Source: a virus (lineage: Duplodnaviria; Caudoviricetes). Taken from it: a stretch of 52,889 nt of DNA. Position numbers and translations under genes: made by a program. The stretch lies in the IMG/VR virus record IMGVR_UViG_3300027754_000127, positions 1-52,889 of that record; one strand, given 5' to 3'. Under the pieces are notes generated by a model. It was given only the letters and a program-made list of their open reading frames with translations, made no database searches and was not told the origin of the DNA. Shown here in pieces: positions 13,533-44,390 of the stretch (position 1 is the stretch's first letter; each line of letters opens with the position of its first letter).

Positions 13533-13548
13533 AATCAGGTTACTAAAG

Positions 13549-21654: not shown

Positions 21655-23199
21655 TTATACAAAATTTATTGTTCCAAGAGTCCCTATTTCATTCAATCCA
21701 ATAGTCGTATCTGCCGAAGGTAGTGATAATGTGTAAATAGGAACATTGCCGTTGCCGTCTATTGTTTGAGAAATTATTGCATTTAGGTCAGTAAGTTTAA
21801 CATTTTCTCCAACATTGTTTGAAATCTTAAAGAAATCAGTTAGTGAGCTAGTCAAAGCAGTTTGCATCGCTGTTGTGTTTGGGCTTAGGCTTGAAAAAGT
21901 AATGGCAATTGGAATGGCGGTTGGGGCAGATACAATCACATCATCATTATTCATATGAGCTGGCTTAATTTCTAAGATTTTATCTTTTACAGTATTAACT
22001 TCGGTCGAAGAAGGGATACTTAAATCATCATTATCACGAGTGAAAATTATTCTAACTTGCCCTTCTTCAACATAAGAATAAGAGGCTGTGATAGTGCCTG
22101 TGGCAGGGGTTGTTGGGCTTCCACTAACTACATAAGTAAAAGTATTAGCGTCTATAACAATAACTCTTTTTTGAACAACATTATATTGAGATTGAACAGC
22201 TCCAACTACTGTAACATAACTTCCATCAACAAGTCCGTGGGCGGTAGAAGTAGCAGTAGCTATTTGTCCGTTTCTTGTGATTGAAGAGATAGAAATTCCA
22301 GCAGAAGTAGTGTCAGGAGAAAATACCCAAACCCTCGTAACGCCAGTAATTGTCTTGGCTTGTCCGATTAAGGCATTAGTATTAAAGAATGAGAAAGGAA
22401 ATTGAATACGATATAAAACTCTTGCTCTGTATGAAGTAGCACTTTCTTGATCTGCTCCACCAGAAATCTCACCAAAATTAACAAAAGCACTATTATTTGC
22501 TCCAGAAATAGGGCTAGATAAAGTAAGAACTCCACCAGCAGTAATATTAGTAGCTGCTCCTTGAGTATTTGAATTAACCACTACACTAGCGGTTGTCCAT
22601 TGAGCAATTAAAGTGCCAGTAGGTGAGCCAGCAGTTCCAGCTTGAGTAAATTGAACTTGAGTTAAGGAAGTAACAGTAATTCTAACATTAGTAGCATTAA
22701 AATCAGTTGGTGTAGCACCAGTTATGGAAATAGTAATTCCGCTTGCTAATCCGTGAGCAGAAGCAAAATTTACAGTTACAGTTGACCCAGTCCTAGACAT
22801 AGAGGAAATTGAGACTGTATTTAATGCAATAGTTGTGTCGGATTGAGTAGTATAAACTAGGCCAGAGGCACTTTGTAAGGTAGTTCCAGAAGGAATTAAA
22901 GTTGTGGAAGTTCCGCTCAAAACAATAGTACCAGAAGAACCAACGGCGGGATTTTTAGTTATTCCATAAATATTACCCCATCTTGCGACATAAGCCTCCG
23001 AGGCAGTTTGAATAAAGAACTCATTAATCATCAGAGTAATCTTTTGATAATTATCGTAAATTCTACTAGCTACGGCTTTAAGTATTGAGGCTAAATATGA
23101 GGTAGGTAAAAATGCTCCGCTATCAGGAATCTGTGCGGTAAAGTCCGATACTAATCTATTATATACTTCCTTCTTATTTGAAGGTAAATTTGATGCCAT
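21655..23199 (-). CDS. Baseplate J-like protein (Mu gp47) with two inserted beta-domains
   Basis: GGADQES...YRARV and GVTRVWV motifs. Confidence 0.9.
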   Translation of the reverse strand: MASNLPSNKKEVYNRLVSDFTAQIPDSGAFLPTSYLASILKAVASRIYDNYQKITLMINEFFIQTASEAYVARWGNIYGITKNPAVGSSGTIVLSGTSTTLIPSGTTLQSASGLVYTTQSDTTIALNTVSISSMSRTGSTVTVNFASAHGLASGITISITGATPTDFNATNVRITVTSLTQVQFTQAGTAGSPTGTLIAQWTTASVVVNSNTQGAATNITAGGVLTLSSPISGANNSAFVNFGEISGGADQESATSYRARVLYRIQFPFSFFNTNALIGQAKTITGVTRVWVFSPDTTSAGISISSITRNGQIATATSTAHGLVDGSYVTVVGAVQSQYNVVQKRVIVIDANTFTYVVSGSPTTPATGTITASYSYVEEGQVRIIFTRDNDDLSIPSSTEVNTVKDKILEIKPAHMNNDDVIVSAPTAIPIAITFSSLSPNTTAMQTALTSSLTDFFKISNNVGENVKLTDLNAIISQTIDGNGNVPIYTLSLPSADTTIGLNEIGTLGTINFV

Positions 23200-23213
23200 T
23201 CGCTGTGGTGAAG

Positions 23214-23666
23214 CTATGTGTTATTTACAGTATTAATCCATAAGTCATAATATTGCACAAATTCTGTGTTATCATTTCTTATTGCAACGATCTTAATTCC
23301 TAAAGCCTCTTTGTCAACTATTTTATATACCTCAATATTAATTTCTTTTGCAATTCCTTTAGTTATATAATGTTCGAATCCCTCTTCCAAAATGTTTTCC
23401 AAAAGATTATTCACTTCATTATCTAAAGCAGATTGATAAACCGTCCAAACCAAAGAGCCTTGTTCAAATCCATCATCGTTTAGTTCGTTTCCAATCCAAC
23501 CACCTCTTGATCTTGGGTCTTCAATCGTTTCATCTCTTTTTTGGCAGAAAATTGTCATCAGAAATGAAGTCTCAAGTCCTTCCGTTAAGGTAAAATCACC
23601 ATTAGTGAAGGAAATATCATAATTTCCATTATCATCTTTAGTTAATTTTAAATCTTTTATTGACAT
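23214..23666 (-). CDS. Baseplate protein (Mu gp46-like)
   Basis: RGGWIGN...GSLVW. Confidence 0.8.
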   Translation of the reverse strand: MSIKDLKLTKDDNGNYDISFTNGDFTLTEGLETSFLMTIFCQKRDETIEDPRSRGGWIGNELNDDGFEQGSLVWTVYQSALDNEVNNLLENILEEGFEHYITKGIAKEINIEVYKIVDKEALGIKIVAIRNDNTEFVQYYDLWINTVNNT

Positions 23667-23753
23667 AAATAAAATTTTTTTTATATTTTAATTAAGAAGT
23701 TGGGGCGGAATTTCCCCACGATGGCTTCTTAGGCGTAGTAGACTTAAAAACTA

Positions 23754-25509: not shown

Positions 25510-26747
25510 TGAGATAATGCGGTTATATTACCAGAAATAAAACAAGGGTCTTCTACTGCGTTAAGGGCATTTAACTCATCCGAACGAGTGCTGTCGCCGT
25601 AAAGATTATAAGCCAAAACAGCAGTTGGAATTAAGTTTGTTCTTAAAGAGACATAATAAGGCAAAGTAGCTCTTGCGTTCTGTAAAAGAAGTCTGTTTTG
25701 CGTTCTCATTTCTTGAAGGTCATAATAAACATCTTCATTAACAGAGTCGGGGTCTAAAGTCTCGAATGCTTCATTTAGCCTAGCAAGCATTGAGTCAATA
25801 TCGCTTTGGGAGGTAAAAGTAATATTGGTCGTAGCAAGGTAAGCTATTGTAAGGCACGCAACATCAGTATAATTAGCCAAAGCAATTTTATTGGTATTTA
25901 ACTGGGTAATTAAAGCGGAGCTTCCAGTGATTTTAGTTCTATCACTCGATCCAAATATCTGTAAAACAATATTGGTCATTATATTAAAATCATCCGTAAT
26001 AGTAGCAATACTATTATAAATAGTCGTAAATCTTCTAGCTAAGTTCGTTGGTGTTTGCATCAAGGTAATAATCGAGGAGCTTAAATCCTTAATGTCAGCA
26101 CTAAAAGCCGCTACTTCATCAGCCACTCCGTTCGTAGTAGAAACAACATTATTAATCGTTTGGGTATTTTCTTGAAGAGAATCTCTTCCTTGGTTCCAAA
26201 GTTCTATATTTTTATTGTAATAATCCAATGCTTGACCAAGAATTGATTCATTATTCCCAAAAGTTTTATCGTAAAGATTAGCCAAGAATCCTTGATTGCC
26301 TTCGGTAGAAGTTGGGAAGATATTTAAAGTGCTTTCTAAGAATGTAATCCTAAAACCAACAACTCCGTTTTCAGTGATAAAGTCTTCACTCATTGAAGCT
26401 GGCTGTGGAACTACTTTTTTCTTGCCTAATGTAGGGTGAGTTAAAACTCCAATGCCTTGTGTTTCAAGGGCTTTCATTAAAGCATTTCTTGATCTCTTAT
26501 AAGCAGAGGCGGTTGTTTCTTGAATCTCAATATCTAAAACATATTTGCCAGAATTTTTACCCAAGTCTTCAACATAGCGATTATCAGAATTAGGATATTC
26601 GTGGACTACTGTTTTTCTGCCAAGTTCAGGCATTTCTGCATTTCTTGCATAGAATCTAACGGTCTTTCCGCCGATTGCATAACTTGCTCTATAAAATGAA
26701 CTTAATACTGTCATCTTTGCCCCGCTATTACTGTTGATGGTCGCCAC
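25506..26747 (-). CDS. DNA circularisation protein (Mu gpN-like; likely start at 26714)
   Basis: GRKTVVHEYP...VEDLG, GVLTHPTLG and LAYNLYGD motifs. Confidence 0.85.
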   Translation of the reverse strand: MATINSNSGAKMTVLSSFYRASYAIGGKTVRFYARNAEMPELGRKTVVHEYPNSDNRYVEDLGKNSGKYVLDIEIQETTASAYKRSRNALMKALETQGIGVLTHPTLGKKKVVPQPASMSEDFITENGVVGFRITFLESTLNIFPTSTEGNQGFLANLYDKTFGNNESILGQALDYYNKNIELWNQGRDSLQENTQTINNVVSTTNGVADEVAAFSADIKDLSSSIITLMQTPTNLARRFTTIYNSIATITDDFNIMTNIVLQIFGSSDRTKITGSSALITQLNTNKIALANYTDVACLTIAYLATTNITFTSQSDIDSMLARLNEAFETLDPDSVNEDVYYDLQEMRTQNRLLLQNARATLPYYVSLRTNLIPTAVLAYNLYGDSTRSDELNALNAVEDPCFISGNITALSQ

Positions 26748-28462
26748 ATAGACATATTAGGTTGGCTTGTCTGAACACTAAAGAAGTCTGGCATATTTTC
26801 TGTTGTGATTTTTACTATTACTTCTTGTGGTTTTTGAGGAATATTATTTTGTTGGGCATTATTCTGCATTGATGGTGCGCTAAAATAGTAGTTCTTCCAG
26901 TCTCTCATAGCCTGTCTACCTAATTCTTTTTCTCCCATTGCTCCAGCTACTGCAACTTCGCCAAGCATACTAGCAGTTTTAAATGGGGCTTTTATTAGTT
27001 CACCAGTTCCGTCAACCATAACATCTTTTAATCCACCAGCCATTCCTTTTACAATCTTAAATAATTTGCTATCGCCGAAAGCATTATCCATTATTGTAAA
27101 TGATTCAGTAATAGTTTTGATTGAGGTTACTGATTGATTTATAGCATCAGTCAATCCCCTAATCGCACCTATTTGTAAGTCGTATGTGCTTATTCCTAAT
27201 GTAGAAGCGAGTTGTTGACCTGCCGTAGATAATCTGTTTTCTTCACCTTGCATCTTAAATGATTTTTCAATCATTTCTTTACCAAACTTTTCATTAATAA
27301 CTTTTATTAATTCTCTTAGCATCAAATCAGAGCTTAGTTTGCCAGTTGCCATTGATTTTATAAATTCAGTGGAGGCATTTTGCATTGTTATATCTTTCCG
27401 CCCTCCTTTTTGAGCTAGTCTAAAAAATGCTTCGTGCAACATCGGTTTAATACCAGGTAATTGCTGCGTTTGTAAGTTGATCTCTTGAGCCTGTAAAGTT
27501 TGTTTAGTCAGCATTTGTTGGAATGCGACCATAGTATCTTGAATAGCAGGTCCTTTCAAACCTAATAAACTTCCATAACCACCAATATTTTCTACCAATC
27601 CTCTAGCTAGTGAAGCATCAGTTTTTCCACCAGTTCCCAACATTTGAACATAAGAAGGAGCAATATCGTTAAAACTTAAACCATATTTATTTGATACTCC
27701 TTTTATGTAATCTATTTCAGATTGGGCCGTGGCTTTTTCCAGTCCTTTAACATTTGGAATTAAGGCAGATAACGAAGCTCGCAAGGAATCCATTTGAACT
27801 GTTGTATCGTGAACATATTTGACTGATCTTCCAACTGTGTAAGCTGCTCCTGCAAAACCTAAACCAGAGGCAACACTACTCATAGAACCAAAGCCATTAC
27901 CTAGTAATCCACCAGCAACTCCATATTTAACACCAAATTCTTTTGGGGTTTTTTCAATACTTTCAAATTTACCAAGTTGATTATTAAATGCAACTTTAGT
28001 AAATGCTCCAGATGGTGCTAACATAGCACTAGAAACATTCATTCTAGTGGCTCTTATCCTATTTCCAAAAATTCTTTCTTCCTGAATCTTGACTCGAGAT
28101 AAAGTATTTACTGCCTGTTTATTTAGGAGTTGTTTTTGAGATAAGGTTTTAAGATTTGTTGCTCCTGCAATAGCATTATCTTTTTCAGCTAACGAAGCGG
28201 CTTTTGTAGTCTTAGCAATGTTGCTTTTGAGGAATAAAGTCTTTGATAGCCCGATTCTTTCTTCGTGCATCCATTGCTTATGCTGCCTCCATTCTTCTTG
28301 TTGGATTTTAGAATAATTTATTCGTGCTTTACGAGTTTTTTCTTCTTGTTCGGTAAATTTCTTTGTAGACTTGCCAACAGAATTGAGACTGTCATTGAAT
28401 TTCTTGATATTATCAGAATAACCATCAAGGACTTCTAATATGTAGGATATTTTGTCGCTCAT
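26711..28462 (-). CDS. Tape measure protein
   Basis: Long helical protein with a tape-measure domain (QQMLTKQTLQAQEIN); gene order. Confidence 0.85.
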   Translation of the reverse strand: MSDKISYILEVLDGYSDNIKKFNDSLNSVGKSTKKFTEQEEKTRKARINYSKIQQEEWRQHKQWMHEERIGLSKTLFLKSNIAKTTKAASLAEKDNAIAGATNLKTLSQKQLLNKQAVNTLSRVKIQEERIFGNRIRATRMNVSSAMLAPSGAFTKVAFNNQLGKFESIEKTPKEFGVKYGVAGGLLGNGFGSMSSVASGLGFAGAAYTVGRSVKYVHDTTVQMDSLRASLSALIPNVKGLEKATAQSEIDYIKGVSNKYGLSFNDIAPSYVQMLGTGGKTDASLARGLVENIGGYGSLLGLKGPAIQDTMVAFQQMLTKQTLQAQEINLQTQQLPGIKPMLHEAFFRLAQKGGRKDITMQNASTEFIKSMATGKLSSDLMLRELIKVINEKFGKEMIEKSFKMQGEENRLSTAGQQLASTLGISTYDLQIGAIRGLTDAINQSVTSIKTITESFTIMDNAFGDSKLFKIVKGMAGGLKDVMVDGTGELIKAPFKTASMLGEVAVAGAMGEKELGRQAMRDWKNYYFSAPSMQNNAQQNNIPQKPQEVIVKITTENMPDFFSVQTSQPNMSMWRPSTVIAGQR

Positions 28463-28692
28463 CTGCCTCTCCTTTTAGATTCGTTTTCAGCTTTTTCTTG
28501 TGCGGCTTTTGCTTTTTGATGTTCAGTTTGATTGTCTTTTATAGCTATATCAAACCATTCAAAAAGTTCGGGAAAAGGCATATCTTTAATATCATTGTAA
28601 GAGAACGGACTATGTTTTAAAAAGCTATAAATAGATTCTTTAAACTTCCGCCTTTCTACTCTATTGGTGAGAAAGGCTGTGTGTCTAAAAAA
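28459..28692 (-). CDS. -1 frameshift extension of the tail assembly chaperone
   Basis: T TTT TTA slippery site at 28692-28686. The -1 frame (YNDIKDMPFPELFEWF) is open to a TGA that overlaps the tape-measure ATG. Confidence 0.75.
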   Translation of the reverse strand, partial: FFRHTAFLTNRVERRKFKESIYSFLKHSPFSYNDIKDMPFPELFEWFDIAIKDNQTEHQKAKAAQEKAENESKRRGR

Positions 28693-28958: not shown

Positions 28959-28959
28959 A

Positions 28960-29361: not shown

Positions 29362-29362
29362 A

Positions 29363-30898
29363 TTATAATTGTGGTGTTAAATCAAAAGTTAAAGAATCTA
29401 ATTGACCCATCAAGTTAAACACCATAGAGCCACTAACTGCACCAGTAGCAGTGTTCACAGTCACTACTAAATTTTGTTTAAATTCATTCAATAAAGTGTC
29501 CGAATATTGAAGAACATTGTAAGGAAATTTAGTAAGGTCAATATAAAGACCAACTATGTAAGCTCTGATTGTTTTTTCATTTGCATAACGAGCTAATGTA
29601 TTATCAGGAGTATCACCAGCAGTTAATCCAGCTTGTGCATAGTAATTTTTAAGATTGGTCATAATATAGGCTCTGGCAGTTGTTGCACAGTCGCTTTTAT
29701 TTAGAGTTTGGTAAGTATAACCGTCAGCAGTTGGAGTAGCTTGTTTATAAGCAGACATCCAAAGTTTATTAGTCACTGCAACAGTTCCACTTTCATCCAT
29801 ACTTAAAGTTGATATACCTAAATCACCCAAACCTTCAATTTCATCAAGGGTAAATCCTTTACCAGCAGCAATGGTAGCAAAGTTATTGAGCTTCATATTT
29901 GAGTAAGGAATACCAGCAGTAAAATATCCACCTCTGTTATTTTCACTCATCATAAATGAGCTAATAGAAGCGTTATTTTTAAGTCTTAAAGTTCTAAGAG
30001 CAGCAATATAAGCAGGAATTGTGTAATCTAATTCTGGCATTGAACCACCTTTATAATCAGCGTCATTTACAAGTTTAACACCAATATAAGTGATGACCTT
30101 AGAAGCTAAAGTTGCTGGAGCTGCAGCTGTTTGAAGATTAGCATAAGTATCAGTCTTAGCAACAATACCAACACCATCTAAAATTTGGTTTCTAGTGTTA
30201 AACTTAGCTTCTAAATGAGTTTTAATAGTGGATAAGAAAGCTACAGGAGAAATAATATCGTATCTTGAAGCATCAATTTTAGTTAAGATGCCAGTCAAGG
30301 TTGGATCAGTTGCACCAGAAGTAAAAACAGTAGTAGTTTGGGTAACTCCGCTTGGTAAAGATTCAACTTGAATAGTAATTCTATTTCCTTCTGTTCCTTT
30401 GTTTTTAGCGGTGAAGGTTACTGTTCCAGTAGAGTTTGCTGCTGTAACTGGCGAATTGCTATCAGCGGTAATCGCTGTAACTAGATCATTACCAATAGTT
30501 GTTGCAGTAGATGAAGTAGTTGTCGCAATAGCGTATCTGTTTTTAGTGTAAGAACCAACTGTCACATATAAAGTTCCTGCCGCAGGACTAGAAGCTGCAA
30601 AAGCAACCGAACCAGTAGCAGCAACACCAGAACCATTGTCAGAAACGATAATTGCATCTAGTCTAGTTTGTGAATTTATTGCTTTAAAAATGTCAATCAT
30701 CAAATGACCAATAGAACCTGCACCACAAAGTGCTTTACCAGTCCCTAGTTCGTTCGAGATATTTGTGACTAATGCTCCAGAAGTGAAAGACCCTGCACTT
30801 GTTCCTTGTGCAAGAATAAGTGGAATACGATCAGAAGGAGCTATGTTGGTAAGTTTAGAAACTAAATTAGCTTCCGTGATTGGGAAAGTGCCTGCCAT
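29363..30898 (-). CDS. Contractile tail sheath (Mu gpL-like)
   Basis: LCGAGSIGHLM, TAKNKGTEGN and SGATDP motifs. Confidence 0.9.
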   Translation of the reverse strand: MAGTFPITEANLVSKLTNIAPSDRIPLILAQGTSAGSFTSGALVTNISNELGTGKALCGAGSIGHLMIDIFKAINSQTRLDAIIVSDNGSGVAATGSVAFAASSPAAGTLYVTVGSYTKNRYAIATTTSSTATTIGNDLVTAITADSNSPVTAANSTGTVTFTAKNKGTEGNRITIQVESLPSGVTQTTTVFTSGATDPTLTGILTKIDASRYDIISPVAFLSTIKTHLEAKFNTRNQILDGVGIVAKTDTYANLQTAAAPATLASKVITYIGVKLVNDADYKGGSMPELDYTIPAYIAALRTLRLKNNASISSFMMSENNRGGYFTAGIPYSNMKLNNFATIAAGKGFTLDEIEGLGDLGISTLSMDESGTVAVTNKLWMSAYKQATPTADGYTYQTLNKSDCATTARAYIMTNLKNYYAQAGLTAGDTPDNTLARYANEKTIRAYIVGLYIDLTKFPYNVLQYSDTLLNEFKQNLVVTVNTATGAVSGSMVFNLMGQLDSLTFDLTPQL

Positions 30899-30926
30899 AA
30901 TATGTTTTTGTGATGAAAAACAATCT

Positions 30927-31121
30927 CTATTTTTTCTTGCCTTGAGCCAGAGATTTTAACTCAAAGTGATTTTTGTTTTCTTCAATAAATCTTAACTGTT
31001 CATACCAGAGAGAATCCGTAGGAACTCCATCTTGGTCAACTTGAATAAAAATTGAAGTATTAGCTTTATACCATTTTTTCTTGATATAAAAGTCTTTTAA
31101 AAATTTTAATTCTGCTTCCAT
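30927..31121 (-). CDS. Small pre-sheath protein (Mu gp38-like position)
   Basis: Gene order; GVP...W pattern. Confidence 0.55.
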   Translation of the reverse strand: MEAELKFLKDFYIKKKWYKANTSIFIQVDQDGVPTDSLWYEQLRFIEENKNHFELKSLAQGKKK

Positions 31122-31248
31122 AATATATTTTGTTGCGGCAATGTGGTGATTGCCTAGCTGTGGTGAAGTTGTTTGACATTTAAGATATATTTTTTAAACT
31201 TAGCAAGACAAAACTATTGTTAGTAATAACAAATAACCAATTGCCTCA

Positions 31249-34481: not shown

Positions 34482-34488
34482 TTACTAA

Positions 34489-34920: not shown

Positions 34921-34968
34921 ATTAAGGTTAATAATTAGTCATAATAAATAACTAATTATTAAAAGCAA

Positions 34969-36472: not shown

Positions 36473-36473
36473 T

Positions 36474-36836
36474 TTAGTTTTTTGATTTTGTTGCCAAAGT
36501 AATTACTGCTGGATTAGTAGCTTGGATAGTTCCTGATACAATCTTTAAGAATCTAACCGAAGATAAATCTATAGTAGTTCCTAAAGTGTAATAACTGCTA
36601 GTCGTAACCGTAGAAGAAATTGCGCTACCAGTGCTTAAAACCTTAATTGGTTTGTAAGTTCCAGTAAGTGAATCTGATCCTTGAAAAGTTAAAGCAGTTC
36701 CAGTTAAATTTGCATCAGTAATTAAGCCAACTAATGTAGTGCCATAAAAGTCAACTGCATTAGAGACTGTTTGTCCAACAGCAATAGTAACACTAAGGTC
36801 AAAATTTGTTCTTGCTTGAAAATCTTTTGAAGCCAT
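36474..36836 (-). CDS. Putative head decoration/structural protein
   Basis: Beta-rich, in the head operon. Confidence 0.5.
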   Translation of the reverse strand: MASKDFQARTNFDLSVTIAVGQTVSNAVDFYGTTLVGLITDANLTGTALTFQGSDSLTGTYKPIKVLSTGSAISSTVTTSSYYTLGTTIDLSSVRFLKIVSGTIQATNPAVITLATKSKN

Positions 36837-37273
36837 TATGCTAATGTAATTTCAATTGTGAATACAGTTTTTACTGTGCCAGTAGAACCGCCATCAGTAG
36901 TTAGTGTAATTAAATCACCAGCAGCAACTGTATTTAAGGCAGTTGGAGTACAAGAATCAATATCGCCAGCAGCAGAACCAGAAAAAGCTACAGTAATTGA
37001 ACCATTAGTGATTGCAACACCATTAATATTGCTTGTAACGATAGAGTTTGCACCAGAAATAGCTCCGTTAATTACGGAATAAATCTTAGAGATAGTTCCT
37101 GCAAATGGAGCAACAACATAACAAGAAGAAGCAGTTGAAATATCAGCTAATTCTACATTAGTAGATCTTTTTTTAAGATTAACACCAGCAGCATTTTCTA
37201 CTGTTCCGCCCAATACAAGAATATTGTCTCCATTGGCTTTGGCTGGTTTAAGATAATTTTTAGTTTCTGGCAT
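36836..37273 (-). CDS. Putative head decoration/fibre protein
   Basis: Beta-rich and S/T/G-rich, in the head operon. Confidence 0.5.
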   Translation of the reverse strand: MPETKNYLKPAKANGDNILVLGGTVENAAGVNLKKRSTNVELADISTASSCYVVAPFAGTISKIYSVINGAISGANSIVTSNINGVAITNGSITVAFSGSAAGDIDSCTPTALNTVAAGDLITLTTDGGSTGTVKTVFTIEITLA

Positions 37274-37277
37274 ATAT

Positions 37278-37580
37278 TTATTTTTTATATTTCTTGTTAG
37301 TAATTCTAATTTCTTTTACTTCTTCAGTAGCTTCAGTTGATTGCTCAATTACTGGTTCTTCAACTTTATTTTCAGGAGAATTAAAAATAGCTTTATTTTC
37401 AAATTTTGGTAACATTTTTTCCTCTTTAACTTCCTCAGCGAATCCTTTATTATCAAAAGCCCATTTTAGAAAGTGGGGAGTTAATCTCGTATCTTTCTCT
37501 AAAACTTCACCCTCTTTAAAGTCAGCAACATTATGACCATCAATAGAGGCTTTAAAATTTTTTAAAATTCTTATTTTCAT
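37278..37580 (-). CDS. Hypothetical head-region protein
   Basis: ENK repeats; position after the capsid genes. Confidence 0.55.
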   Translation of the reverse strand: MKIRILKNFKASIDGHNVADFKEGEVLEKDTRLTPHFLKWAFDNKGFAEEVKEEKMLPKFENKAIFNSPENKVEEPVIEQSTEATEEVKEIRITNKKYKK

Positions 37581-37597
37581 AAATATATGAGTAAATA

Positions 37598-37619
37598 AGG
37601 GGGATTTTACTCCCCCCTA
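37598..37619 (-). terminator. Probable intrinsic terminator after the capsid/decoration genes
   Basis: AGGGGGA-N6-TCCCCCT stem followed by a T-rich tract on the minus strand. Confidence 0.65.
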
Positions 37620-37623
37620 TAAA

Positions 37624-38037
37624 TTAAGCATTATTAGTAGTAGGAGCATTCAAAGGATAACCTAAGATTGCAATTACACTAAAGATTGCTGCACCTGTAT
37701 TATTAGCTGGAGTAATGGTCATTCTATTGTATCTTTTAGAACCATTATAACCAATTTCACGCAGTTTGTTGTCTGCGGCAAATGTAAAGCTAGCTTGTGC
37801 TTCAGTTCCCAAAAGGAAATCATCAGCAACAGCAGCGTAAGTTACATTGTCGTCAGAATCTTCTACTAAAACAGTAAAGGTAGCATCAGCATCAGCCAAA
37901 GAACCAATAGTGATTACATATTTTAGAGCGTCAAAACCAACCAAATCAACAACTGTACACACTTGTGCAGTATTGTCGGTTACGGAAGCTGGGGCAAGAA
38001 CTTGCTTCTCTTGTAGAGTAGTATAAATATCGTACAT
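37624..38037 (-). CDS. Capsid decoration/cement-like protein
   Basis: VDLVGFD...VEDSDD...IGYNGSKRY; immediately after the MCP. Confidence 0.65.
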   Translation of the reverse strand: MYDIYTTLQEKQVLAPASVTDNTAQVCTVVDLVGFDALKYVITIGSLADADATFTVLVEDSDDNVTYAAVADDFLLGTEAQASFTFAADNKLREIGYNGSKRYNRMTITPANNTGAAIFSVIAILGYPLNAPTTNNA

Positions 38038-38055
38038 TTTATATATTATTTAAGG

Positions 38056-39231
38056 TTAAGCAGAAATTTTTAATTTAGCGAATGCTTCTGCAAGCTTCAC
38101 TAATCCAGCAACTCTACGAATGAAAGTATATTCAATGATGCCTTCTCTTTTTTGAGTAACTTCGTCTCTAATAACTCTCATATCCATACCAGTTCCAGCA
38201 GCATAACCTCTTGCGAAGTCAGCAAAAACAACTGGATAAGTGCCAGCAGCAATATCAGGTAAGTTAGGAACTTCTAGGTAAGCAAAGCCGTTGATAGTAT
38301 TTGGAATACCAGCAACTAGATTACCAGGCTGCCATAATGGTTTACCAACACCGTCTTCTTGAGCCAACAAAGTAGCTCTAGTTAAACGATTGAAAGCATA
38401 GATTGGATTATAACCAGTTTTCAATTGACCAGTTAAAAGAGTCATTGATCTCCAAGTGATTGCATCAGCTACGCCAGAATTTAATTCTTGAGTAACTACA
38501 CCAGAAGCCATATAACCTTGCAATTGAGTAGGACTAGCAGTTCCATTGGTAATTTGTTCACCCAAAAGAACAGCGAATGCTTCTGCAACATCTTGTTGAA
38601 TTTGGTCAGCAATAGAAACGCCAGCATCTTGTAATTCTTCAATAGTTACAGGAACAGTCACTTGCATTTTTTTCAAAGTCAAAAGCTGTTCACCATATTT
38701 AGAATTAGATAGACTATCTTGCTTACCTTCACCAACCATAGTTGCGGTCAAAAGAGTATTTCTAATTGGAAGTCTAGTGGTTTTAGCACCAACTTTCATA
38801 AAATTAATGACCTTGCTATAATTAGAAATTTCAGTAATTTTCTTAGTAATATCAGTTGAGAATGCTTCAGGAACTAAAGCACCGCCATCAATTAAAGAGT
38901 CAGTGCGAAGATATTTTTTATCAATTTCTGACATACCTTTAATGTCTGATCTTAAAAAAGCATCAAAAGCCTTCATTTCAGCTTTACCTTCTTCTGATTT
39001 ACCATTGTAATCAGCTCTTAGTAAAATAGCTTCACGAGCCTTTGCTTCATTTTCAAACTCTACACGAGCTTTTTTCTCAGTTTCAAGTTCTTTAACCAAA
39101 TCTTGGTTTTTCTTTTCTTGAGCTTCAATAAAAGAAGTAACTTGTGTAGTAACTTCTGTATTGTTAGTTCTTACTGATTCTTGGAGAGCTTTTACAGCTT
39201 CCATCAGATTTTGTGGTGAAAAATCTTTCAT
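38056..39231 (-). CDS. Major capsid protein, HK97 fold
   Basis: Coiled-coil delta domain; DGGALVPE, GKPLWQP and VVFADF motifs. Confidence 0.95.
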   Translation of the reverse strand: MKDFSPQNLMEAVKALQESVRTNNTEVTTQVTSFIEAQEKKNQDLVKELETEKKARVEFENEAKAREAILLRADYNGKSEEGKAEMKAFDAFLRSDIKGMSEIDKKYLRTDSLIDGGALVPEAFSTDITKKITEISNYSKVINFMKVGAKTTRLPIRNTLLTATMVGEGKQDSLSNSKYGEQLLTLKKMQVTVPVTIEELQDAGVSIADQIQQDVAEAFAVLLGEQITNGTASPTQLQGYMASGVVTQELNSGVADAITWRSMTLLTGQLKTGYNPIYAFNRLTRATLLAQEDGVGKPLWQPGNLVAGIPNTINGFAYLEVPNLPDIAAGTYPVVFADFARGYAAGTGMDMRVIRDEVTQKREGIIEYTFIRRVAGLVKLAEAFAKLKISA

Positions 39232-39240
39232 AATATTTAT

Positions 39241-40032
39241 TTAATTAAAATTTATTCCGCTTTTAAGCGAAGTTAATATGTTGCTAAACGCAATTTGATC
39301 CGCCGCATCACGCAACGCTTTAATACTTTCCTCAAGTTCAACATCACATTGATCTTTTTTGGAAAATTCTTTTACTTTTGAAATAAGTGTCTTTGCTTCC
39401 TTACTAGAAAACCCACTTTCTTTCAAAGTTGTTTCAATATCTTTAAGAGAGTTTATCTCACTTAAGTTTTTATCTTGTTTTTCAGAATTTAAAATGTCGT
39501 TAATTTCCATTTTTTCTGCTTCGTCTAGGTCTTCAATCATAGATTTAATTGCAGTAAGCCTTGCTTTGTCGTTCATTGGGAAAGTAACTACTGAACCTTC
39601 CATAAGTTTAGACTTTTTAATAACTCGGCATCTTTTTCCGTCCATAGTTTTCATCTCGCAGTCTTTCTGATCCACGCCATAACCAACGGAGAAGCCAGAA
39701 ATATCACCATTTTTAAGATTTGCATACTTTTCAGCAGCGTTAGGAACTAGATAATTCTGAGTGATTGGATCACGCATCAGGTTAAATTTAGCATCAACCA
39801 TCTTAAGACCGTATTGGTCAGGCTCAATTCTAAATTTTCCAATTGGTTTTTTTGTGTCGTGATCAGCTAAGAGAGGATAAAACTTTCCAGCTGGTTCTTC
39901 GGAGAAGGCTTTAGCGTCAAAGATGTCGTTTCCAAAGTCAATGTTGTTAAATGCGGCAACATATCCTTCAAAAGAACCATCTTCTTGCAGGCTTTTAATC
40001 TCTAGTGTGAATTGTTTATAGTTTATGTCCAT
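39241..40032 (-). CDS. HK97-family prohead protease
   Basis: FEGY, LLADHD, GFSVGY and EGSVVTFPMN motifs. Confidence 0.95.
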   Translation of the reverse strand: MDINYKQFTLEIKSLQEDGSFEGYVAAFNNIDFGNDIFDAKAFSEEPAGKFYPLLADHDTKKPIGKFRIEPDQYGLKMVDAKFNLMRDPITQNYLVPNAAEKYANLKNGDISGFSVGYGVDQKDCEMKTMDGKRCRVIKKSKLMEGSVVTFPMNDKARLTAIKSMIEDLDEAEKMEINDILNSEKQDKNLSEINSLKDIETTLKESGFSSKEAKTLISKVKEFSKKDQCDVELEESIKALRDAADQIAFSNILTSLKSGINFN

Positions 40033-40127
40033 AAGTGGTGAATATGGTTGAAATTATTTTAAATAAACATTGCTTTTAATTTCTTAGCAAGATAAATTTA
40101 CTATTGGTAATAACAAACTACTAATTT

Positions 40128-40358
40128 ATGGCAAGAACAGGAAAATCAGAAGAGTTTATTTTTGTAAAAAAATTTGATAGATTTTTCCCAATTCTTCATA
40201 AACAAGGTAAAATAAAAGAACCCAATAGAGATGCTTTTATGGAATATATTGGTCTTAATAAAAATAGCTGGAAAAACTTTAAAAAAACTGGGATTAAAAA
40301 GATTTATTATGTGGTTCTTGAATTATTAGAGAAAGCATATCCTAAAAAGCCCTTATAG
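40128..40358 (+). CDS. Small basic, possibly HTH DNA-binding protein
   Basis: RDAFMEYIGLNKNSWKNFKK helix pattern; divergent from the head operon. Confidence 0.5.
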   Translation: MARTGKSEEFIFVKKFDRFFPILHKQGKIKEPNRDAFMEYIGLNKNSWKNFKKTGIKKIYYVVLELLEKAYPKKPL

Positions 40359-40422
40359 TTAAGTGATATAACGATTGCCTTGTAAGCATTAGTTCCTAGT
40401 TTGATTCTGGGTGAGGGCAACA
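40349..40422 (+). tRNA. tRNA-Thr(TGT)
   Basis: Acceptor GCCCTTA/TGAGGGC; anticodon loop CTTGTAA. Confidence 0.8.
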
Positions 40423-40427
40423 ATTTA

Positions 40428-40503
40428 GTCAACTTAGCTGATGTGGTCATAGCGGCAGTTTGAAGAACTGTTGAACTTAGTTCGATTCTAAGAGTTGATA
40501 CCA
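40428..40503 (+). tRNA. tRNA-Phe(GAA)
   Basis: Acceptor GTCAACT/AGTTGAT; arm GCAGT-TTGAAGA-ACTGT; TTCGA T-loop; 3' CCA. Confidence 0.85.
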
Positions 40504-40504
40504 T

Positions 40505-40579
40505 TGCGGAGTAAATCATTGGCAGATTATTTGCCTCATAAGCAAAAAGTAGGTGGTTCAATTCCACCCTCCGCAACCA
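40505..40579 (+). tRNA. tRNA-Met/Ile2(CAT)
   Basis: Acceptor TGCGGAG/CTCCGCA; arm TTTGC-CTCATAA-GCAAA; 3' CCA. Confidence 0.88.
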
Positions 40580-40593
40580 AATAAATAAAAATT

Positions 40594-40971
40594 ATGAAAA
40601 CCCAATATAAATTAGAAACATTCACTAGCTTTGGTTTAGAATATTTCTGTAATATCAGTTTAGTTATGTGTCAAGCTAGAACAGAATTACCTAATTATGT
40701 TTCATTTTCAGAAGAAACTCTAAAGAAGTTGGTTGTTCAAATTGGCTGTATGGGTGAGTTTGTTATTGATTTAACTCATAAATCCTTCTGTCAAACGCCT
40801 TATCGTATAGATAATTCCCTAGAATTTGGAATAATTGAGGCTGTAAAGAAAAATATTTCTATTATTGATGAAATTGAAAAAAATGCTGCGGAAGCTTTTA
40901 TTATGGCAGACTTCACATTAAGTCCGAAAGAAAAGAAATTAAGAATTAAAACTAGAAGAGAAAATGTATAA
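40594..40971 (+). CDS. Hypothetical protein
   Basis: ORF downstream of the tRNAs. Confidence 0.5.
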   Translation: MKTQYKLETFTSFGLEYFCNISLVMCQARTELPNYVSFSEETLKKLVVQIGCMGEFVIDLTHKSFCQTPYRIDNSLEFGIIEAVKKNISIIDEIEKNAAEAFIMADFTLSPKEKKLRIKTRRENV

Positions 40972-41091
40972 TCTAACTCGTGAAAACATATTAAATTGGG
41001 CTAAAATGCTTGATGTGCAAGTCAATAAGTATTGGAGTAATAAGAAAATTAAAGCTATTTGCCTTGAAAAACTTAAAAAAGTTGGAGATGT

Positions 41092-41295
41092 ATGAAAAAC
41101 TTAGTCAAATTTGTTTGTAGTAATGGTCACGAACTTAGCAGGTCAAAAGATAAATTTCTTATGACATTTGATGTAAAAGAAATTACTCACCCAAAATTAA
41201 AAAGTCTTAATCTCAAGAATGGGGATTATCTTAAAAAATGTCCTGATTGTAATGCCTCGACAATAATAACTAAGACAATTTGTGAAGAAAATTAA
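41092..41295 (+). CDS. Small zinc-ribbon protein
   Basis: CSNGH...CPDC. Confidence 0.55.
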   Translation: MKNLVKFVCSNGHELSRSKDKFLMTFDVKEITHPKLKSLNLKNGDYLKKCPDCNASTIITKTICEEN

Positions 41296-42989
41296 CCTTT
41301 TGCGTTTTGAATTTGTCTCCATTTAGAATTTGCCCAGCTTCTACCAGAGTTTCCGCCCCAAAGCATCCAAGCAATGTAATGATTTGATGGTTCGCCGTTA
41401 GGTTTTTTGTTTTTTCCTTCATTTACTCCGTGTCTAGCAAAGTAAGATACCATTCTTCCGATAGTTTTAGGGGTAAGATTTTCTCTTGATTTTAACTGAT
41501 TAGCTCTTGCAACTCCGATAGAAGTGCCACCTCTGCCGTATTTTTCTCTTAATTCTAATCCACGAGCAGCATTTCTTGCCATTCTTTCACTTGGAACTAA
41601 ACTAAGTGATTTCTCTTCTTCCATATCTTCTTCCTCGACATCGTCCTCTTCTCCAATACCTTGACTCATACCATTAGCAGCAACACCAAAGTTTTCACCC
41701 TCATCACCTGCAACAGCAACTTGGTTTCCATCAATATAGACTGCATTTCCACCAACATTAGTCTTAGGGCGATCCATATACTTCCTAATTTCATTAATTG
41801 TAAATACACCGCCCTTTTTAAGGGTGGAAATTGATTCAAACATACGAACTTGTAGAGCCATAATGGAGGACTTATCATAACCAATCTTGACTATTTCTTC
41901 TCGTGGGTAGAAATTTTGGTAGATAAAATGATAGTAAAAGTCGCAATACTTGTCTAAAAGAGGTAAAATAGCCTTATCATAAAAATAAAGGTTAGCTTCT
42001 TTAGTGGACGCAGCAGCCGCAAACTCACCTTCAACGGATGGAAGAGAAACATTGAAATTATTATAAATAGCAACCCTCATTCTTCGCATTAACTTCTCAA
42101 AGTCCATATCTTTAAGGTTCATATCCAAAGGAACGGCAGTAAATGGTATTCCCATCAATAAAACATTTCCAGTATTATTTACGCCACAGAAATTATTTTT
42201 AATATAATGTCTACTTTTTTCTAATTGATCTTGGGTTGGCATTGTTGTTCCTTCTTTGGGAGAAAACATCATCTTGGAAGACATCCCATTTTTTAGCAAA
42301 TTGGTATTATGAACAGAAGCTTGTAAATACTGGTTCATTTCCAACTCTACACTTTGTAGAGGTGAGTCTCCGTAAAGACAATTGTTTATAGGATTTGTGC
42401 TTGGCTCTTTGAAGTGTACAAGAACTCCGAATTTATCATCAACGAAAGCTTCAATCAATTGATTATTGAAGTTACGAATTAATCTTTTTGTGAAATATCT
42501 TTGCGTTCCATTTGATGTATAGTAGTAATGGTCCACATAGCCATTTGATCCTGCAACAGCGGTGACGAAATCGGGACGAAGATTAAAAACTTCGTTTGGT
42601 TGGTAGATTATTTTAGTTCCATCAGCGTTAAGAACTCCTGAAAGATAAATATAATTATTTCCAGTAGCGAGGTAATGAATAAAAGCTTCTTTGCGGTAGT
42701 CTATTCCTGTTTGTTGGAAGTTTGGTCTGGAAAACTTCTTAACAAAAGCATTATCTTGTTCGGGTTCTAAACCTTCCTCGCTCTCTTCGTAAGGTAAAAG
42801 CCTAATAGCTGAAGCCTCAGAAGCAATTTTTCCAATAGCATCACCAACAGGAGCTATCTGTGAGTAGTATCTTAAACCAACAGAAGGATTAGCAGAAAAA
42901 GAAAATGAATCGTAGTAGTCTCCAATCATCAGTGCATCATAAGCACCTTTTTTCTCATAGCCAAATTTACTTAGAACTTTTTGGAACAT
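41292..42989 (-). CDS. HK97-family portal protein with a C-terminal extra domain
   Basis: PNFQQT, GNNY, LRPD, YGDSPL and TINEIR motifs; acidic linker, then a YIAWMLWGG domain. Confidence 0.92.
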   Translation of the reverse strand: MFQKVLSKFGYEKKGAYDALMIGDYYDSFSFSANPSVGLRYYSQIAPVGDAIGKIASEASAIRLLPYEESEEGLEPEQDNAFVKKFSRPNFQQTGIDYRKEAFIHYLATGNNYIYLSGVLNADGTKIIYQPNEVFNLRPDFVTAVAGSNGYVDHYYYTSNGTQRYFTKRLIRNFNNQLIEAFVDDKFGVLVHFKEPSTNPINNCLYGDSPLQSVELEMNQYLQASVHNTNLLKNGMSSKMMFSPKEGTTMPTQDQLEKSRHYIKNNFCGVNNTGNVLLMGIPFTAVPLDMNLKDMDFEKLMRRMRVAIYNNFNVSLPSVEGEFAAAASTKEANLYFYDKAILPLLDKYCDFYYHFIYQNFYPREEIVKIGYDKSSIMALQVRMFESISTLKKGGVFTINEIRKYMDRPKTNVGGNAVYIDGNQVAVAGDEGENFGVAANGMSQGIGEEDDVEEEDMEEEKSLSLVPSERMARNAARGLELREKYGRGGTSIGVARANQLKSRENLTPKTIGRMVSYFARHGVNEGKNKKPNGEPSNHYIAWMLWGGNSGRSWANSKWRQIQNAKG

Positions 42990-43037
42990 AAATCTTTATT
43001 ATGGTGAAATAAAGCTAATTTAATAAAGGTTTTTAAC

Positions 43038-43249: not shown

Positions 43250-43262
43250 ATTTAATTAAATT

Positions 43263-44362: not shown

Positions 44363-44390
44363 ATTTTACATAATGTAGATTATGCAACCA
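44363..44390. other. dif-like XerC/XerD recombination site
   Basis: ATTTTACATAA-TGTAGA-TTATGCAACCA, an 11-6-11 layout; the core matches the E. coli dif core CATAATGTATATTATG at 15/16. Confidence 0.8.

What the first reader, a model, noticed from the sequence alone, without database searches (positions are those of the whole stretch)
23197..43014. Conserved (U)CACCAC-loop hairpins at the translation starts of structural genes: a candidate translational late-gene regulon
Seen in sequence (plus-strand text; the mRNA is the reverse complement). Portal 42994-43014 CTTTATT-atggtga-AATAAAG. Protease 40029-40047 CCATA-agtggtgaa-TATGG, where the stem contains the start codon. MCP 39206-39226 AGATTTT-gtggtga-AAAATCT, in the first codons. 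Pre-sheath gene 31137-31154 GGCAAT-gtggtg-ATTGCC, plus a second weaker copy at 31156-31170. Sheath 30903-30922 TGTTTTT-gtgatg-AAAAACA. Tube about 29362-29382, bulged and weaker. Baseplate J 23197-23218 CAT..GCT-gtggtga-AGC.ATG, where the stem includes the start codon. The stems are unrelated in sequence while the loop is conserved, which is the covariation signature of a protein-bound RNA hairpin. All copies lie within about 50 nt of a start codon. Inference: a sequence-specific RNA-binding factor gates translation of head, sheath, tube and baseplate genes. I know of no description of this motif. The loop also resembles the 16S anti-SD (UCACCUCC) and a tRNA ACCA end; that link is speculative.
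Basis: partly seen in the sequence, partly recalled or inferred. Interest (0 to 1): 0.9.

Follow-up and report, generated by a model that had tools for sequence, protein, structure and literature searches.

The report
Conserved-loop RNA hairpins at late-gene starts
This phage carries small RNA hairpins with one shared seven-letter loop at the start codons of its main head and tail genes; related phages keep them, and they are probably an undescribed switch controlling how these proteins are made.

Summary
The window is a whole 52.9-kb myophage genome. On the late-gene sense strand, five perfect hairpins (5-7 bp A/U-rich stems, loop (U)CAYCAY) lie at the portal, protease, capsid, ORF64 and sheath starts. 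Weaker copies lie at tube, baseplate J and a second ORF64 site. Eight such hairpins occur on the sense strand and none on the other; shuffles give 1.2 +/- 1.0. Five of the 8 fall in the 6% of positions near starts (P=4e-5). A complete relative, G001, shares only the structural module yet has seven copies at the same genes plus terL, and stems differ while the loop stays. Sixteen other late-gene starts have none, nor does the more distant relative G003.

The hairpins are marginally stable (-2.5 to -3.7 kcal/mol for most) and span -49 to +26 around the AUG. Several pair the AUG itself.

Best reading: RNA operators that one trans-acting factor reads through the loop, controlling translation initiation in an SD-poor, probably Bacteroidota-infecting, phage. 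The factor, the direction of control and the host are unknown. Rfam and three of six literature searches aimed at the motif found no description. The anti-SD and tRNA links are unsupported.

The parts
42994..43014 (-). Portal hairpin, CUUUAUU-UCACCAU-AAUAAAG. It spans -25..-5 relative to the portal AUG at 42989.
   Evidence: dG is -3.4 kcal/mol. CM R1 gives 23.1 bits, but this is a seed. G001 has TTATTA-CTCACCACA-TAATAA at the same site.
40029..40047 (-). Protease hairpin, CCAUA-UUCACCACU-UAUGG. It spans -15..+4, so the AUG is paired in the 3' arm.
   Evidence: dG is -3.7 kcal/mol. It is kept in 6 of 7 relatives with protease identity >=61%; G002 has the changed stem TCATAA/TTATGG.
39206..39226 (-). 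MCP hairpin, AGAUUUU-UCACCAC-AAAAUCU. It spans +6..+26 (codons 3-9) and is followed by an in-frame AUG at 39204.
   Evidence: It is kept in 3 of 3 relatives with MCP identity >=76%. CM R1 gives 27.6 bits, but this is a seed.
31137..31154 (-). ORF64b hairpin, GGCAAU-CACCAC-AUUGCC. It spans -33..-16 relative to the ORF64 AUG at 31121.
   Evidence: dG is -7.6 kcal/mol. Orthologous stems are GGCAGT/ACTGCC, TTTAGT/ACTAAA, TTTTAG/CTAAAA and ATTTGGG/CTTAAAT.
31156..31170 (-). ORF64a, the upstream tandem copy of the loop (UUCACCAC). It is barely paired in this genome.
   Evidence: 2 bp here. In relatives the same place holds 4-9 bp hairpins: GGTA/TACC, TTAGATA/TATCTAA, AGAGTT/AACTCT and ATGTTTAAG/CTTAGACGT.
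30903..30922 (-). Sheath hairpin, UGUUUUU-CAUCAC-AAAAACA. It spans -24..-5 and starts 5 nt after the ORF64 stop.
   Evidence: CM R1 gives 18.7 bits, E=0.024, and this site was not a seed. L017/L073 have CACCAC on the same stem; G002 has GTTTTT-CACCA-AAAAAC.
29366..29384 (-). Tube copy, UGAUU-UAACACCAC-AAUUA (one G.U pair). It spans -23..-5 and lies inside the last codons of the sheath gene.
   Evidence: It is not predicted to fold alone and CM R1 did not find it at E<=10. The sequence is kept in 5 relatives, but it also encodes the sheath C-terminus.
23197..23218 (-). Baseplate-J copy, CAU(A)GCU-UCACCAC-AGC(GA)AUG. It spans -19..+3. The AUG lies in the 3' arm and the upstream gene's TAG stop lies in the 5' arm.
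   Evidence: (-2.5 kcal/mol). Orthologues are AGCT-AACACCAC-GGCT (G001, L020, L032) and TTGGG-TTCACCAC-CCCGA (L027).
30927..31121 (-). ORF64, a 64-aa protein of unknown function and the first gene of the tail operon. It is preceded by the tandem hairpins. It is a weak candidate for the binder.
   Evidence: 16 close homologues. It is present in G001, G002 and L027 and absent from G003, but also present in the hairpin-negative L030/L031. The AF2 model has pLDDT 80.7 and no fold match at E<=0.001 (best 0.027 in the viral library, 0.7 in PDB).
31199..31240 (-). Promoter-like block (TTG-N21-TAGTTTTG) followed by CTTGCTAAG, 33 nt upstream of the first ORF64 loop copy. The exact 9-mer recurs at 40083-40091, upstream of the protease.
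   Evidence: The match is to the Bacteroidota -33/-7 consensus, which I recalled rather than measured. No transcription start site data exist.

Best explanation
The hairpins are cis-acting RNA operators in the translation-initiation regions of a fixed subset of late mRNAs: portal, protease, major capsid, ORF64, sheath, tube and baseplate J, plus terL in relatives.

Each is a short, marginally stable A/U-rich stem that presents the same single-stranded loop, U-C-A-Y-C-A-C. One trans-acting factor, most likely a protein, reads that loop. Because every hairpin lies inside the 30S footprint, and in three gene families pairs the AUG itself, binding would stabilise or open the stem and so set ribosome access to these starts as a group.

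At internal cistrons (sheath, tube, bpJ) the upstream ORF ends in or just before the hairpin, so upstream translation would also melt it. This would add translational coupling.

Shown: the motif, its strand, its position, its conservation and its stem covariation. Inferred: RNA-level action, a protein partner, translation as the controlled step, and a Bacteroidota-type SD-independent host.
For: 1. Strand and place. 8 versus 0 hairpins on the two strands. In G001 the copy at divergent terL lies on terL's own sense strand.
2. Position. All copies span -49..+26 around the AUG. The AUG is paired in the protease and bpJ hairpins, and in G002 terL by my reading of the output. Three copies end exactly 4 nt before the AUG.
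3. Enrichment at starts. P is about 4e-5 in the window and 1.6e-6 in G001.
4. Orthologous conservation with changed stems:
   - The ORF64 5'UTRs were chosen by protein homology only. 12 of 13 distinct relatives have at least one CAYCAY-loop hairpin. Fisher combination over 9 distinct stems gives P=1.8e-7.
   - Portal, bpJ, protease and terL stems also differ between relatives.
   - In the CM-aligned set, 87% of cells are paired against 47% in shuffles and at most 51% when slid.
5. Specificity. There is no CAYCAY at 16 other late-gene starts, where at least one relative could be compared at 15 of them (73 relative sequences in all).
6. Weak stems (-2.5 to -3.7 kcal/mol) that are nevertheless kept by compensatory change point to a recognised structure rather than a thermodynamic block.
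7. The window and G001 share almost only the structural module, and L027 has 43% GC yet keeps the motif. The partner is therefore either conserved host machinery or encoded in the late module.
8. Context. Only 9 of 70 genes have an SD-like tetramer, and leaders are A-rich and G-poor. In F. johnsoniae, mRNA structure at the start tunes initiation (PMC6847099, abstract).
Against: - No binder was found. No RNA-binding domain turned up among the 51 proteins scanned against Pfam, PHROGs or both; not every ORF was scanned.
- ORF64 gave no informative fold or family, and it also occurs in a hairpin-negative phage.
- There are no expression or 5'-end data (one search listed none).
- Distance to the AUG varies from 1 to 23 nt, and one copy is inside an ORF.
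- Several orthologous sites lack the motif or carry degenerate loops: portal of L070/G002, sheath of the G001 type, tube of L027.
- The gene set follows no clear stoichiometric logic.
- The tube copy may be explained by coding constraint.
- The A2 and A4 alignments were selected for, or fitted to, the structure, so their pair counts are partly circular.
- The host is unknown.
Confidence: 0.5

Rival explanations
1. RNA processing or stability signal. A sequence-specific endoribonuclease (host or phage) recognises the loop and cuts the polycistronic late transcripts just before each marked cistron. This would yield short-leader mRNAs or set their half-lives.
For: - The copies sit at cistron boundaries, including internal ones.
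- A cut in the loop would leave AUGs 1-23 nt from the new 5' end at every site.
- At the MCP a cut would remove the first AUG but keep the conserved in-frame AUG or AUGs right after the hairpin.
- T4 RegB is a precedent for a short motif in initiation regions of one temporal class being cut (PMC3014915, passages).
Against: - No nuclease gene is shared by the hairpin-positive genomes apart from a staphylococcal-nuclease-like ORF (15672-16067; 47% identity in G001), and nothing links it to RNA.
- Pairing of the AUG in three gene families is not needed for a processing site.
- There are no 5'-end data.
Confidence: 0.15
2. Direct RNA-RNA or ribosome contact with no dedicated protein. The loop either pairs with a G/U-rich partner (5'-GUGGUGA-3') in an rRNA, tRNA or small RNA, or it mimics the 16S 3' tail (AUCACCUC) and docks where that tail binds.
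For: - Most loop variants are transitions that would keep pairing to GUGGUG through G.U: CAUCAC at four sites, CACCAU, UACCAC at two sites, and CACCGC.
- The loop shares UCACC-C with 16S positions 1532-1538.
- In Bacteroidia that tail is held by bS21, bS18 and bS6 (PMC7797042).
Against: - There is no GUGGUGA in a plausible trans RNA of the phage. The three tRNAs and the intergenic regions were checked.
- There is no perfect 7-nt complement in the one 16S examined. That MAG's relevance is doubtful.
- The pocket contacts fall mainly outside the resembling stretch, and U1537 is mismatched.
- Transitions are the commonest substitutions anyway, and transversion variants exist: CACCAA, CACACG and UACCCG.
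Confidence: 0.1
3. Transcription-level element: a late promoter part, a pause site, or a nut/put-like antitermination hairpin read by RNA polymerase or a NusG-type factor.
For: - It is strand-specific.
- Three copies (portal, protease, ORF64) follow promoter-like sequence by 33-42 nt.
- ORF64 has a tandem pair, as some antitermination sites do.
Against: - Internal copies (MCP, sheath, tube, bpJ) have no promoter context.
- Copies lie 1-23 nt from the AUG, or inside the ORF, so they cannot be promoters for the adjacent gene.
- Processive antitermination needs only one site per operon.
- The loop is not GNRA-like, and no boxA was seen by eye; no boxA consensus was searched for.
- None of the copies is among the 12 terminator-like sites found.
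Confidence: 0.07
4. No function. The hairpins are chance A/T-rich palindromes around a C-rich word that is partly fixed by coding (T/S-P-Q codons).
For: - The tube and MCP copies lie in coding sequence reading ACA/TCA-CCA-CAA.
- A/T-rich 5-bp hairpins near starts are common: 70 in the window.
- Single-site shuffle P values are modest, 0.001-0.4.
Against: - The excess over shuffles and the strand bias.
- Start-site enrichment in two genomes that share no early genes.
- The loop is kept while stems change at non-coding orthologous sites.
- The motif is absent from 16 other late starts and from G003, L030, L033 and L007.
Confidence: 0.04

Closest known systems
Levivirus (MS2, PP7, Qbeta) coat-protein / replicase translational operator hairpin (recalled, not from a call)
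   Same: A short, weak hairpin whose loop bases are read sequence-specifically and whose stem contains or abuts the start codon. Protein binding stabilises it and blocks initiation.
   Different: - There it is a single site in an ssRNA phage, with a bulged A and a 4-nt (MS2) or 6-nt (PP7) loop of different sequence, and the binder is the coat protein.
- Here there are 7-8 sites in a dsDNA myophage, a 6-9 nt loop with UCAYCAC, no conserved bulge, and the binder is unknown.
Phage T4 post-transcriptional regulators: the RegA regulon and the gp43 and gp32 operators (PMC3014915, passages read; RegA details recalled)
   Same: A dsDNA phage controlling sets of its own mRNAs at initiation regions. The gp43 operator is a hairpin whose loop (UAAC) is kept between T4 and RB69 while the rest varies.
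   Different: - RegA sites are unstructured A/U-rich stretches on early and middle mRNAs.
- gp43 and gp32 are single autogenous sites.
- T4 uses SD sequences.
- Here the targets are late structural genes in an SD-poor genome.
T4 RegB endoribonuclease sites (GGAG in initiation regions; PMC3014915)
   Same: A short word recurring in the initiation regions of one temporal class of phage genes, acting after transcription.
   Different: - The RegB word is the SD itself. It must be unpaired, marks early genes and is cut.
- Here the word is C/A-rich, sits in a hairpin loop and marks late genes. Cleavage has not been shown.
Lambdoid N-utilisation boxB hairpins (recalled)
   Same: A small RNA hairpin with a conserved loop read by a phage protein, acting on groups of genes.
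   Different: - boxB has a GNRA-like pentaloop, is paired with boxA, occurs once per early operon near the promoter, and acts on transcription.
- It is not tied to start codons.
SD-independent initiation in Bacteroidia (PMC6847099 abstract; PMC7797042 passages and section 29; PMC13000453 abstract)
   Same: A-rich, G-poor leaders with few SD sequences. In such hosts, mRNA structure at the start is a main tuner of initiation, so a hairpin there is a potent lever.
   Different: None of the parts of those papers that I read mentions a recurrent loop motif or hairpin regulon. That the host is a Bacteroidota member is my inference.

Membership tests
Any RNA family in Rfam 15 | Match to a curated covariance model | tested here: not met
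   An E-value scan of the whole window on both strands at E<=1 found only three tRNAs.
Levivirus coat-protein operator | Hairpin that contains or abuts the start codon of the regulated gene | tested here: met
   The protease and bpJ AUGs are in the 3' arm. The portal, sheath and tube hairpins end 4 nt before the AUG.
Levivirus coat-protein operator | Bulged purine in the stem, the family's loop consensus (MS2 ANYA; recalled), and an ssRNA phage genome | tested here: not met
   The stems are perfect and have no conserved bulge. The loop is UCAYCAC. The genome is a tailed dsDNA phage.
Levivirus coat-protein operator | Bound by the phage coat protein | not testable with these tools
   No RNA-protein prediction or assay was available.
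Lambda-type nut (boxA + boxB) | GNRA-like pentaloop hairpin, promoter-proximal, one per operon, preceded by boxA | tested here: not met
   The loops are 6-9 nt and C/A-rich. There are 7-8 copies, including internal cistron junctions.
Intrinsic terminator | G+C-rich stem followed by a U tract | tested here: not met
   None of the CAYCAY hairpins is among the 12 terminator-like sites in 28000-45500. The stems are A/U-rich and no U tract follows.
Shine-Dalgarno element | Complementarity to the 16S CCUCC core, 5-10 nt upstream of the AUG | tested here: not met
   The loop resembles the anti-SD strand and is not complementary to it. Spacing ranges from -19 to +23.
Bacteroidota sigma-A promoter (-33 TTTG / -7 TAnnTTTG; consensus recalled) | The two motifs at about 19-nt spacing upstream of a transcription start | tested here: not met
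   The hairpins do not match. One such match lies at 31240-31209, upstream of the ORF64 hairpins.
T4 RegB site | Unpaired GGAG/U in an initiation region | tested here: not met
   There is no GGAG at the sites. The feature is taken from PMC3014915.

The most novel reading that the evidence does not exclude
The loop (A/U)UCACCAC is a deliberate copy of the 16S rRNA 3' tail (GAUCACCUCC). By presenting it next to their start codons, the phage's late mRNAs would engage whatever holds or processes that tail in SD-blind Bacteroidia ribosomes. Candidates are the bS21/bS18/bS6 platform pocket or a tail-binding factor of the Era KH-domain type (recalled). This would be a reverse Shine-Dalgarno: the mRNA mimics the anti-SD instead of pairing with it, and so recruits or escapes host ribosome control late in infection.
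Probability: 0.06. Interest if true: 0.85.

Novelty: new variant of a known kind. Interest (0 to 1): 0.62.

Why it matters
Translational operators are textbook in RNA phages and T4. A multi-copy hairpin with one shared loop, marking the head, tail and baseplate genes of a tailed phage, has not been described as far as Rfam and my searches show.

The phage's genes largely lack Shine-Dalgarno sequences, as in Bacteroidota. In that phylum start-site selection is still poorly understood, and no phage post-transcriptional regulon turned up in my searches.

If the loop is read by a conserved host component, the motif would show how phages take command of SD-blind ribosomes or RNA decay. If it is read by a late-module protein, it defines a new small RNA-binding family and a portable operator-repressor pair for Bacteroidota genetics. 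Either way it gives a compact, directly testable RNA element: 17-21 nt, with natural compensatory variants already in hand.

Tried and rejected
Tried without result:
- Expression data: no RNA holder was listed for 29301-39300.
- Close named relatives: none at the DNA level in the phage collection. The best sheath match there is <=38% identical, in Mu/SfV-like phages of Proteobacteria.
- Host by prophage search: 80 genome loci, all distant (<=41% over partial matches), mostly Proteobacteria.
- Binder search:
  - Pfam and PHROGs, 6 searches of 10 proteins each covering 51 distinct proteins, found no RNA-binding domain.
  - ORF64 has only 16 close homologues.
  - The ORF64 AF2 model has no Foldseek match at E<=0.001 in PDB (best 0.7, SH3-like hints) or in BFVD (best 0.027, uncharacterised small phage proteins including DUF7210).
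  - No PDB sequence match. The Atlas gave nothing above 0.86.
- An alternative recurrent loop in the hairpin-negative relatives G003, L030, L033 and L007: none.
- RbpB of B. thetaiotaomicron: the motifs tested in vitro were GUAGGAUA and UCCUGUGC, unlike this loop (preprint 10.1101/2021.04.27.441718, passages).
- Literature: six searches in all. Three were aimed at the motif and three at context. None turned up a description of a CACCAC-loop hairpin in a phage. This is no proof that none exists. Supplements were closed and were not consulted.

Rejected:
- Promoter for the adjacent gene: too close to, or inside, the ORF.
- Terminator.
- A 5'-terminal stabiliser as a general role: four copies are internal.
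- His-His codons (CAY CAY): not in frame at the MCP (TCA CCA CAA), and the upstream copies stand at offsets of 2, 5, 9, 11 and 21 nt from the AUG, which are not all multiples of three.
- Pairing with 16S: no 7-nt complement in L164.

Caveats:
- Alignment A2 was made from hairpins I selected, and A4 is fitted to the model, so overstate independence.
- MAFFT alignment A5 misplaces several 3' arms, so it was not used for counting.
- One search counts redundant contigs.

Full report
**What the window is.** The window is a complete record of 52,889 bp and one contig, with about 32% G+C. The late genes lie on the minus strand from about 15.6 to 45 kb.
- The large terminase lies on the plus strand (31249-32718, 7e-75).
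- The tube gene (28960-29361) is named by position only.
- The 'pre-sheath gene' is a 64-codon ORF, 30927-31121, here called ORF64.
- Three tRNA genes lie on the plus strand between portal and protease.
- Only 9 of 70 ORFs have a GGAG/GAGG/AGGA word at -20..-4. The leaders are A-rich (56% A at -3) and G-poor.
- This is the pattern described for Bacteroidia, where ribosomes ignore SD sequences and mRNA structure plus upstream adenines tune initiation (PMC6847099, abstract; PMC7797042, passages).
- The host itself is unknown. There is no close named phage and no close prophage.

**The observation.** Read on the minus strand, all eight sites are as described.
- Five are perfect hairpins of 5-7 bp with a 6-9 nt loop holding CAYCAY: portal, protease, MCP, ORF64b and sheath.
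- Three are weak: ORF64a, tube and bpJ.
- Relative to the A of each AUG the hairpins span:
  - portal -25..-5
  - protease -15..+4
  - MCP +6..+26
  - ORF64b -33..-16
  - ORF64a -49..-35
  - sheath -24..-5
  - tube -23..-5 (my redrawing)
  - bpJ -19..+3
- CAYCAY in the loop of a >=5-bp stem occurs 8 times on the minus strand and never on the plus strand. 300 dinucleotide shuffles give 1.18 +/- 1.03, maximum 4.
- Five of the 8, and 6 of all 14 CACCAC, lie in the 6.0% of strand positions within -50..+30 of a sense start (P=3.8e-5 and 9.5e-5).

**Relatives.** Searches with the MCP, sheath, portal and ORF64 proteins brought 101 IMG/VR loci.
- In the close clade the loop recurs at the same gene starts while the stems change.
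  - ORF64b: GGCAAT/ATTGCC (window), GGCAGT/ACTGCC, TTTAGT/ACTAAA, TTTTAG/CTAAAA, ATTTGGG/CTTAAAT.
  - ORF64a: GGTA/TACC, TTAGATA/TATCTAA, AACA/TGTT, AGAGTT/AACTCT, ATGTTTAAG/CTTAGACGT.
  - Portal: CTTTATT/AATAAAG versus TTATTA/TAATAA.
  - bpJ: AGCT/GGCT and TTGGG/CCCGA.
  - Protease: CCATA/TATGG versus TCATAA/TTATGG.
  - In one subgroup terL carries (G)TTAATAA-TCAYCAC-TTATTAA(T), ending 1 nt before its AUG.
- The ORF64 leaders were chosen by protein homology alone, so they give an unbiased set. 12 of 13 distinct relatives have at least one such hairpin, and the exception is the L030/L031 type. Local-shuffle P values for nine distinct stems combine to 1.8e-7.
- At 16 other late-gene starts no CAYCAY was found in any relative; at least one relative could be compared at 15 of them (73 unique sequences).
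- A covariance model built from 18 chosen instances found the sheath site, which was not a seed, at E=0.024 in the window. ORF64b scored E=1.5, bpJ E=5 and the tube site was missed.
- Over 40 further loci (511 kb), 25 of 30 matches at E<=1 are the known start sites in clade members. None is in L006-L015 or L030-L038.
- Pair counts on that alignment are 87% paired against 47% in shuffles and at most 51% when slid. The alignment is fitted to the structure, so the number is indicative only.

**Two whole genomes as a natural experiment.**
- G001 (55.5 kb, terminal repeats, rated complete) has hairpins at ORF64, tube, bpJ, portal, protease, MCP and terL, each on that gene's sense strand. All 5 of its hairpin CACCAC lie at starts (P=1.6e-6).
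- G001 shares with the window essentially only the head-tail module. Almost none of the plus-strand early genes has a match.
- L027, with 43% G+C, keeps the motif at ORF64 (twice) and at bpJ.
- G003 (49 kb, 95% complete; sheath 53% identical) has none.
- The partner that reads the loop is therefore either conserved host machinery or a product of the shared late module.

**What the anatomy says.**
- Orientation always follows the gene. This argues for RNA rather than double-stranded DNA.
- The stems are weak: -3.4, -3.7, -2.9 and -2.5 kcal/mol for portal, protease, sheath and bpJ, -7.6 for ORF64b, and the tube copy does not fold alone. The MCP minimum-energy fold (-3.1 kcal/mol) is not the drawn hairpin and is no better than shuffles. 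Yet the stems are maintained by compensatory change.
- That combination suits a structure that is recognised, like the coat-protein operators of RNA phages (recalled), rather than a passive block.
- Every copy lies in the region a 30S subunit must occupy. In the protease, in bpJ and (my reading) in G002 terL, the AUG pairs with an upstream CAU.
- At internal sites upstream translation would open the hairpin.
  - The TAG stop of the preceding gene lies in the bpJ 5' arm.
  - The tube copy lies in the last sheath codons.
  - The sheath copy begins 5 nt after the ORF64 stop.
- In the G001 subgroup, ORF64 and sheath are separated by 1-2 nt and the sheath hairpin is absent. This fits interchangeable ways of coupling.
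- The portal, protease and ORF64 copies lie 33-42 nt downstream of promoter-like sequence, including an exact repeated CTTGCTAAG. They are therefore 5'-UTR elements and not promoters.
- None of the copies is terminator-like.

**The loop.**
- The consensus is U-C-A-Y-C-A-C.
- Variants seen at orthologous sites are mostly transitions: CAUCAC at ORF64, sheath, tube and terL; CACCAU at the portal; UACCAC at the protease and bpJ; CACCGC at the portal.
- A few are transversions in degenerate sites: CACCAA, CACACG and UACCCG.
- This would fit either a protein that tolerates pyrimidine exchange or pairing to a G/U-rich RNA.
- I found no GUGGUGA in a plausible phage RNA and no 7-nt complement in one 16S sequence.
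- The resemblance to the 16S tail covers 1532-1538 with a mismatch at U1537. The published contacts are chiefly A1534, U1537, C1538 and U1541-U1544. I rate that link as unlikely but not excluded.

**The binder.** None was identified.
- ORF64 is the only late-module gene whose distribution nearly tracks the motif. It is present in the window, G001, G002, L027 and L187 and absent from G003. It is also preceded by the tandem copies.
- However, it also occurs in the hairpin-negative L030/L031, where its lysine patch is replaced.
- Its model is a small beta-barrel with two helices and no informative match.
- I regard it as a candidate to test, at roughly 15%.

**Verdict.** This is a real, conserved and apparently undescribed RNA hairpin motif tied to the start codons of a fixed set of late genes.
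- The most likely role is a loop-specific operator of translation initiation (about 0.5).
- Processing (0.15), direct RNA or ribosome contact (0.10) and transcription-level roles (0.07) remain open.
- It is a new variant of a known kind, the phage translational operator, and not a new category.

Noticed in passing
window 40349-40579 (+): Three tRNA genes (Thr-TGT, Phe-GAA, Met-CAT) plus small plus-strand ORFs are inserted, in the opposite direction, between the portal and protease genes. Two of the tRNAs encode their CCA ends.
   Followed up: partly
window 37598-37618 (-): A strong terminator-like hairpin, AGGGGGG-AGTAAAA-TCCCCCT, followed by a T-rich tail. It lies after the gene that follows the MCP and is conserved in relatives with compensatory changes (GGGGGC.../...GCCCCC types). 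It is probably an attenuator after the capsid genes.
   Followed up: partly
window 39256-39271 (-): A conserved G+C-containing hairpin (TTCGCT-TAAA-AGCGGA) lies in the last codons of the protease gene, about 25 nt before the MCP start. Relatives have ATCGCTTAATAGCGA at the same place.
   Followed up: no
window 31199-31240 and 40083-40120 (-): The protease and ORF64 upstream regions share a block of about 40 nt (TTTGTTATTACYAA...TAGT...TTTR-TCTTGCTAAG) with a Bacteroidota-like -33/-7 promoter. It probably marks two copies of one late promoter.
   Followed up: partly
window upstream of 983, 45441, 46771, 49933 (+): Early-gene leaders carry AACAACAACAAAC / (CAA)n runs just before the AUG. Several others (5740, 6652, 9009, 49682) carry ATATTAACTT(T)A. 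In G001 a palindrome TTAACTTAAAGTTAA stands upstream of both the protease and the terL/ORF64 region.
   Followed up: no
window 13049-13093 and 13483-13527 (+): The 45 nt upstream of two neighbouring ORFs (13094-13477 and 13528-13989) are nearly identical, which suggests a local duplication of a leader. The second ORF is one of the few early genes shared with G001 (70% identity).
   Followed up: no
window 28463-28480 (-): The tape-measure gene (26711-28462) is one of the few genes with a strong SD-like run (AAAAGGAGAGGCAG-ATG). Relatives keep similar runs (AGGAGA, AGGGGG). In an SD-poor genome this stands out.
   Followed up: no
window 39202-39231 (-): The MCP has a second in-frame AUG directly after the hairpin, and relatives have two (ATGATGG). 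AUG is reported to be under-represented near Bacteroidetes starts (PMC6847099 abstract), so alternative starts are possible.
   Followed up: partly
L017:529-551 (-), also in L071-L073: A perfect 8-bp hairpin, TAATTCTA-TCACCAG-TAGAATTA, lies on the antisense strand inside the portal gene of one relative group. Its loop is one letter off the motif.
   Followed up: no
G003 (L161), minus strand, about 42,000 bases from the contig's high end in reverse-strand counting: In the hairpin-negative relative, a tandem array of 15-nt units (AATATT + 9 nt such as AAAGCGCGG) spans a gene start.
   Followed up: no
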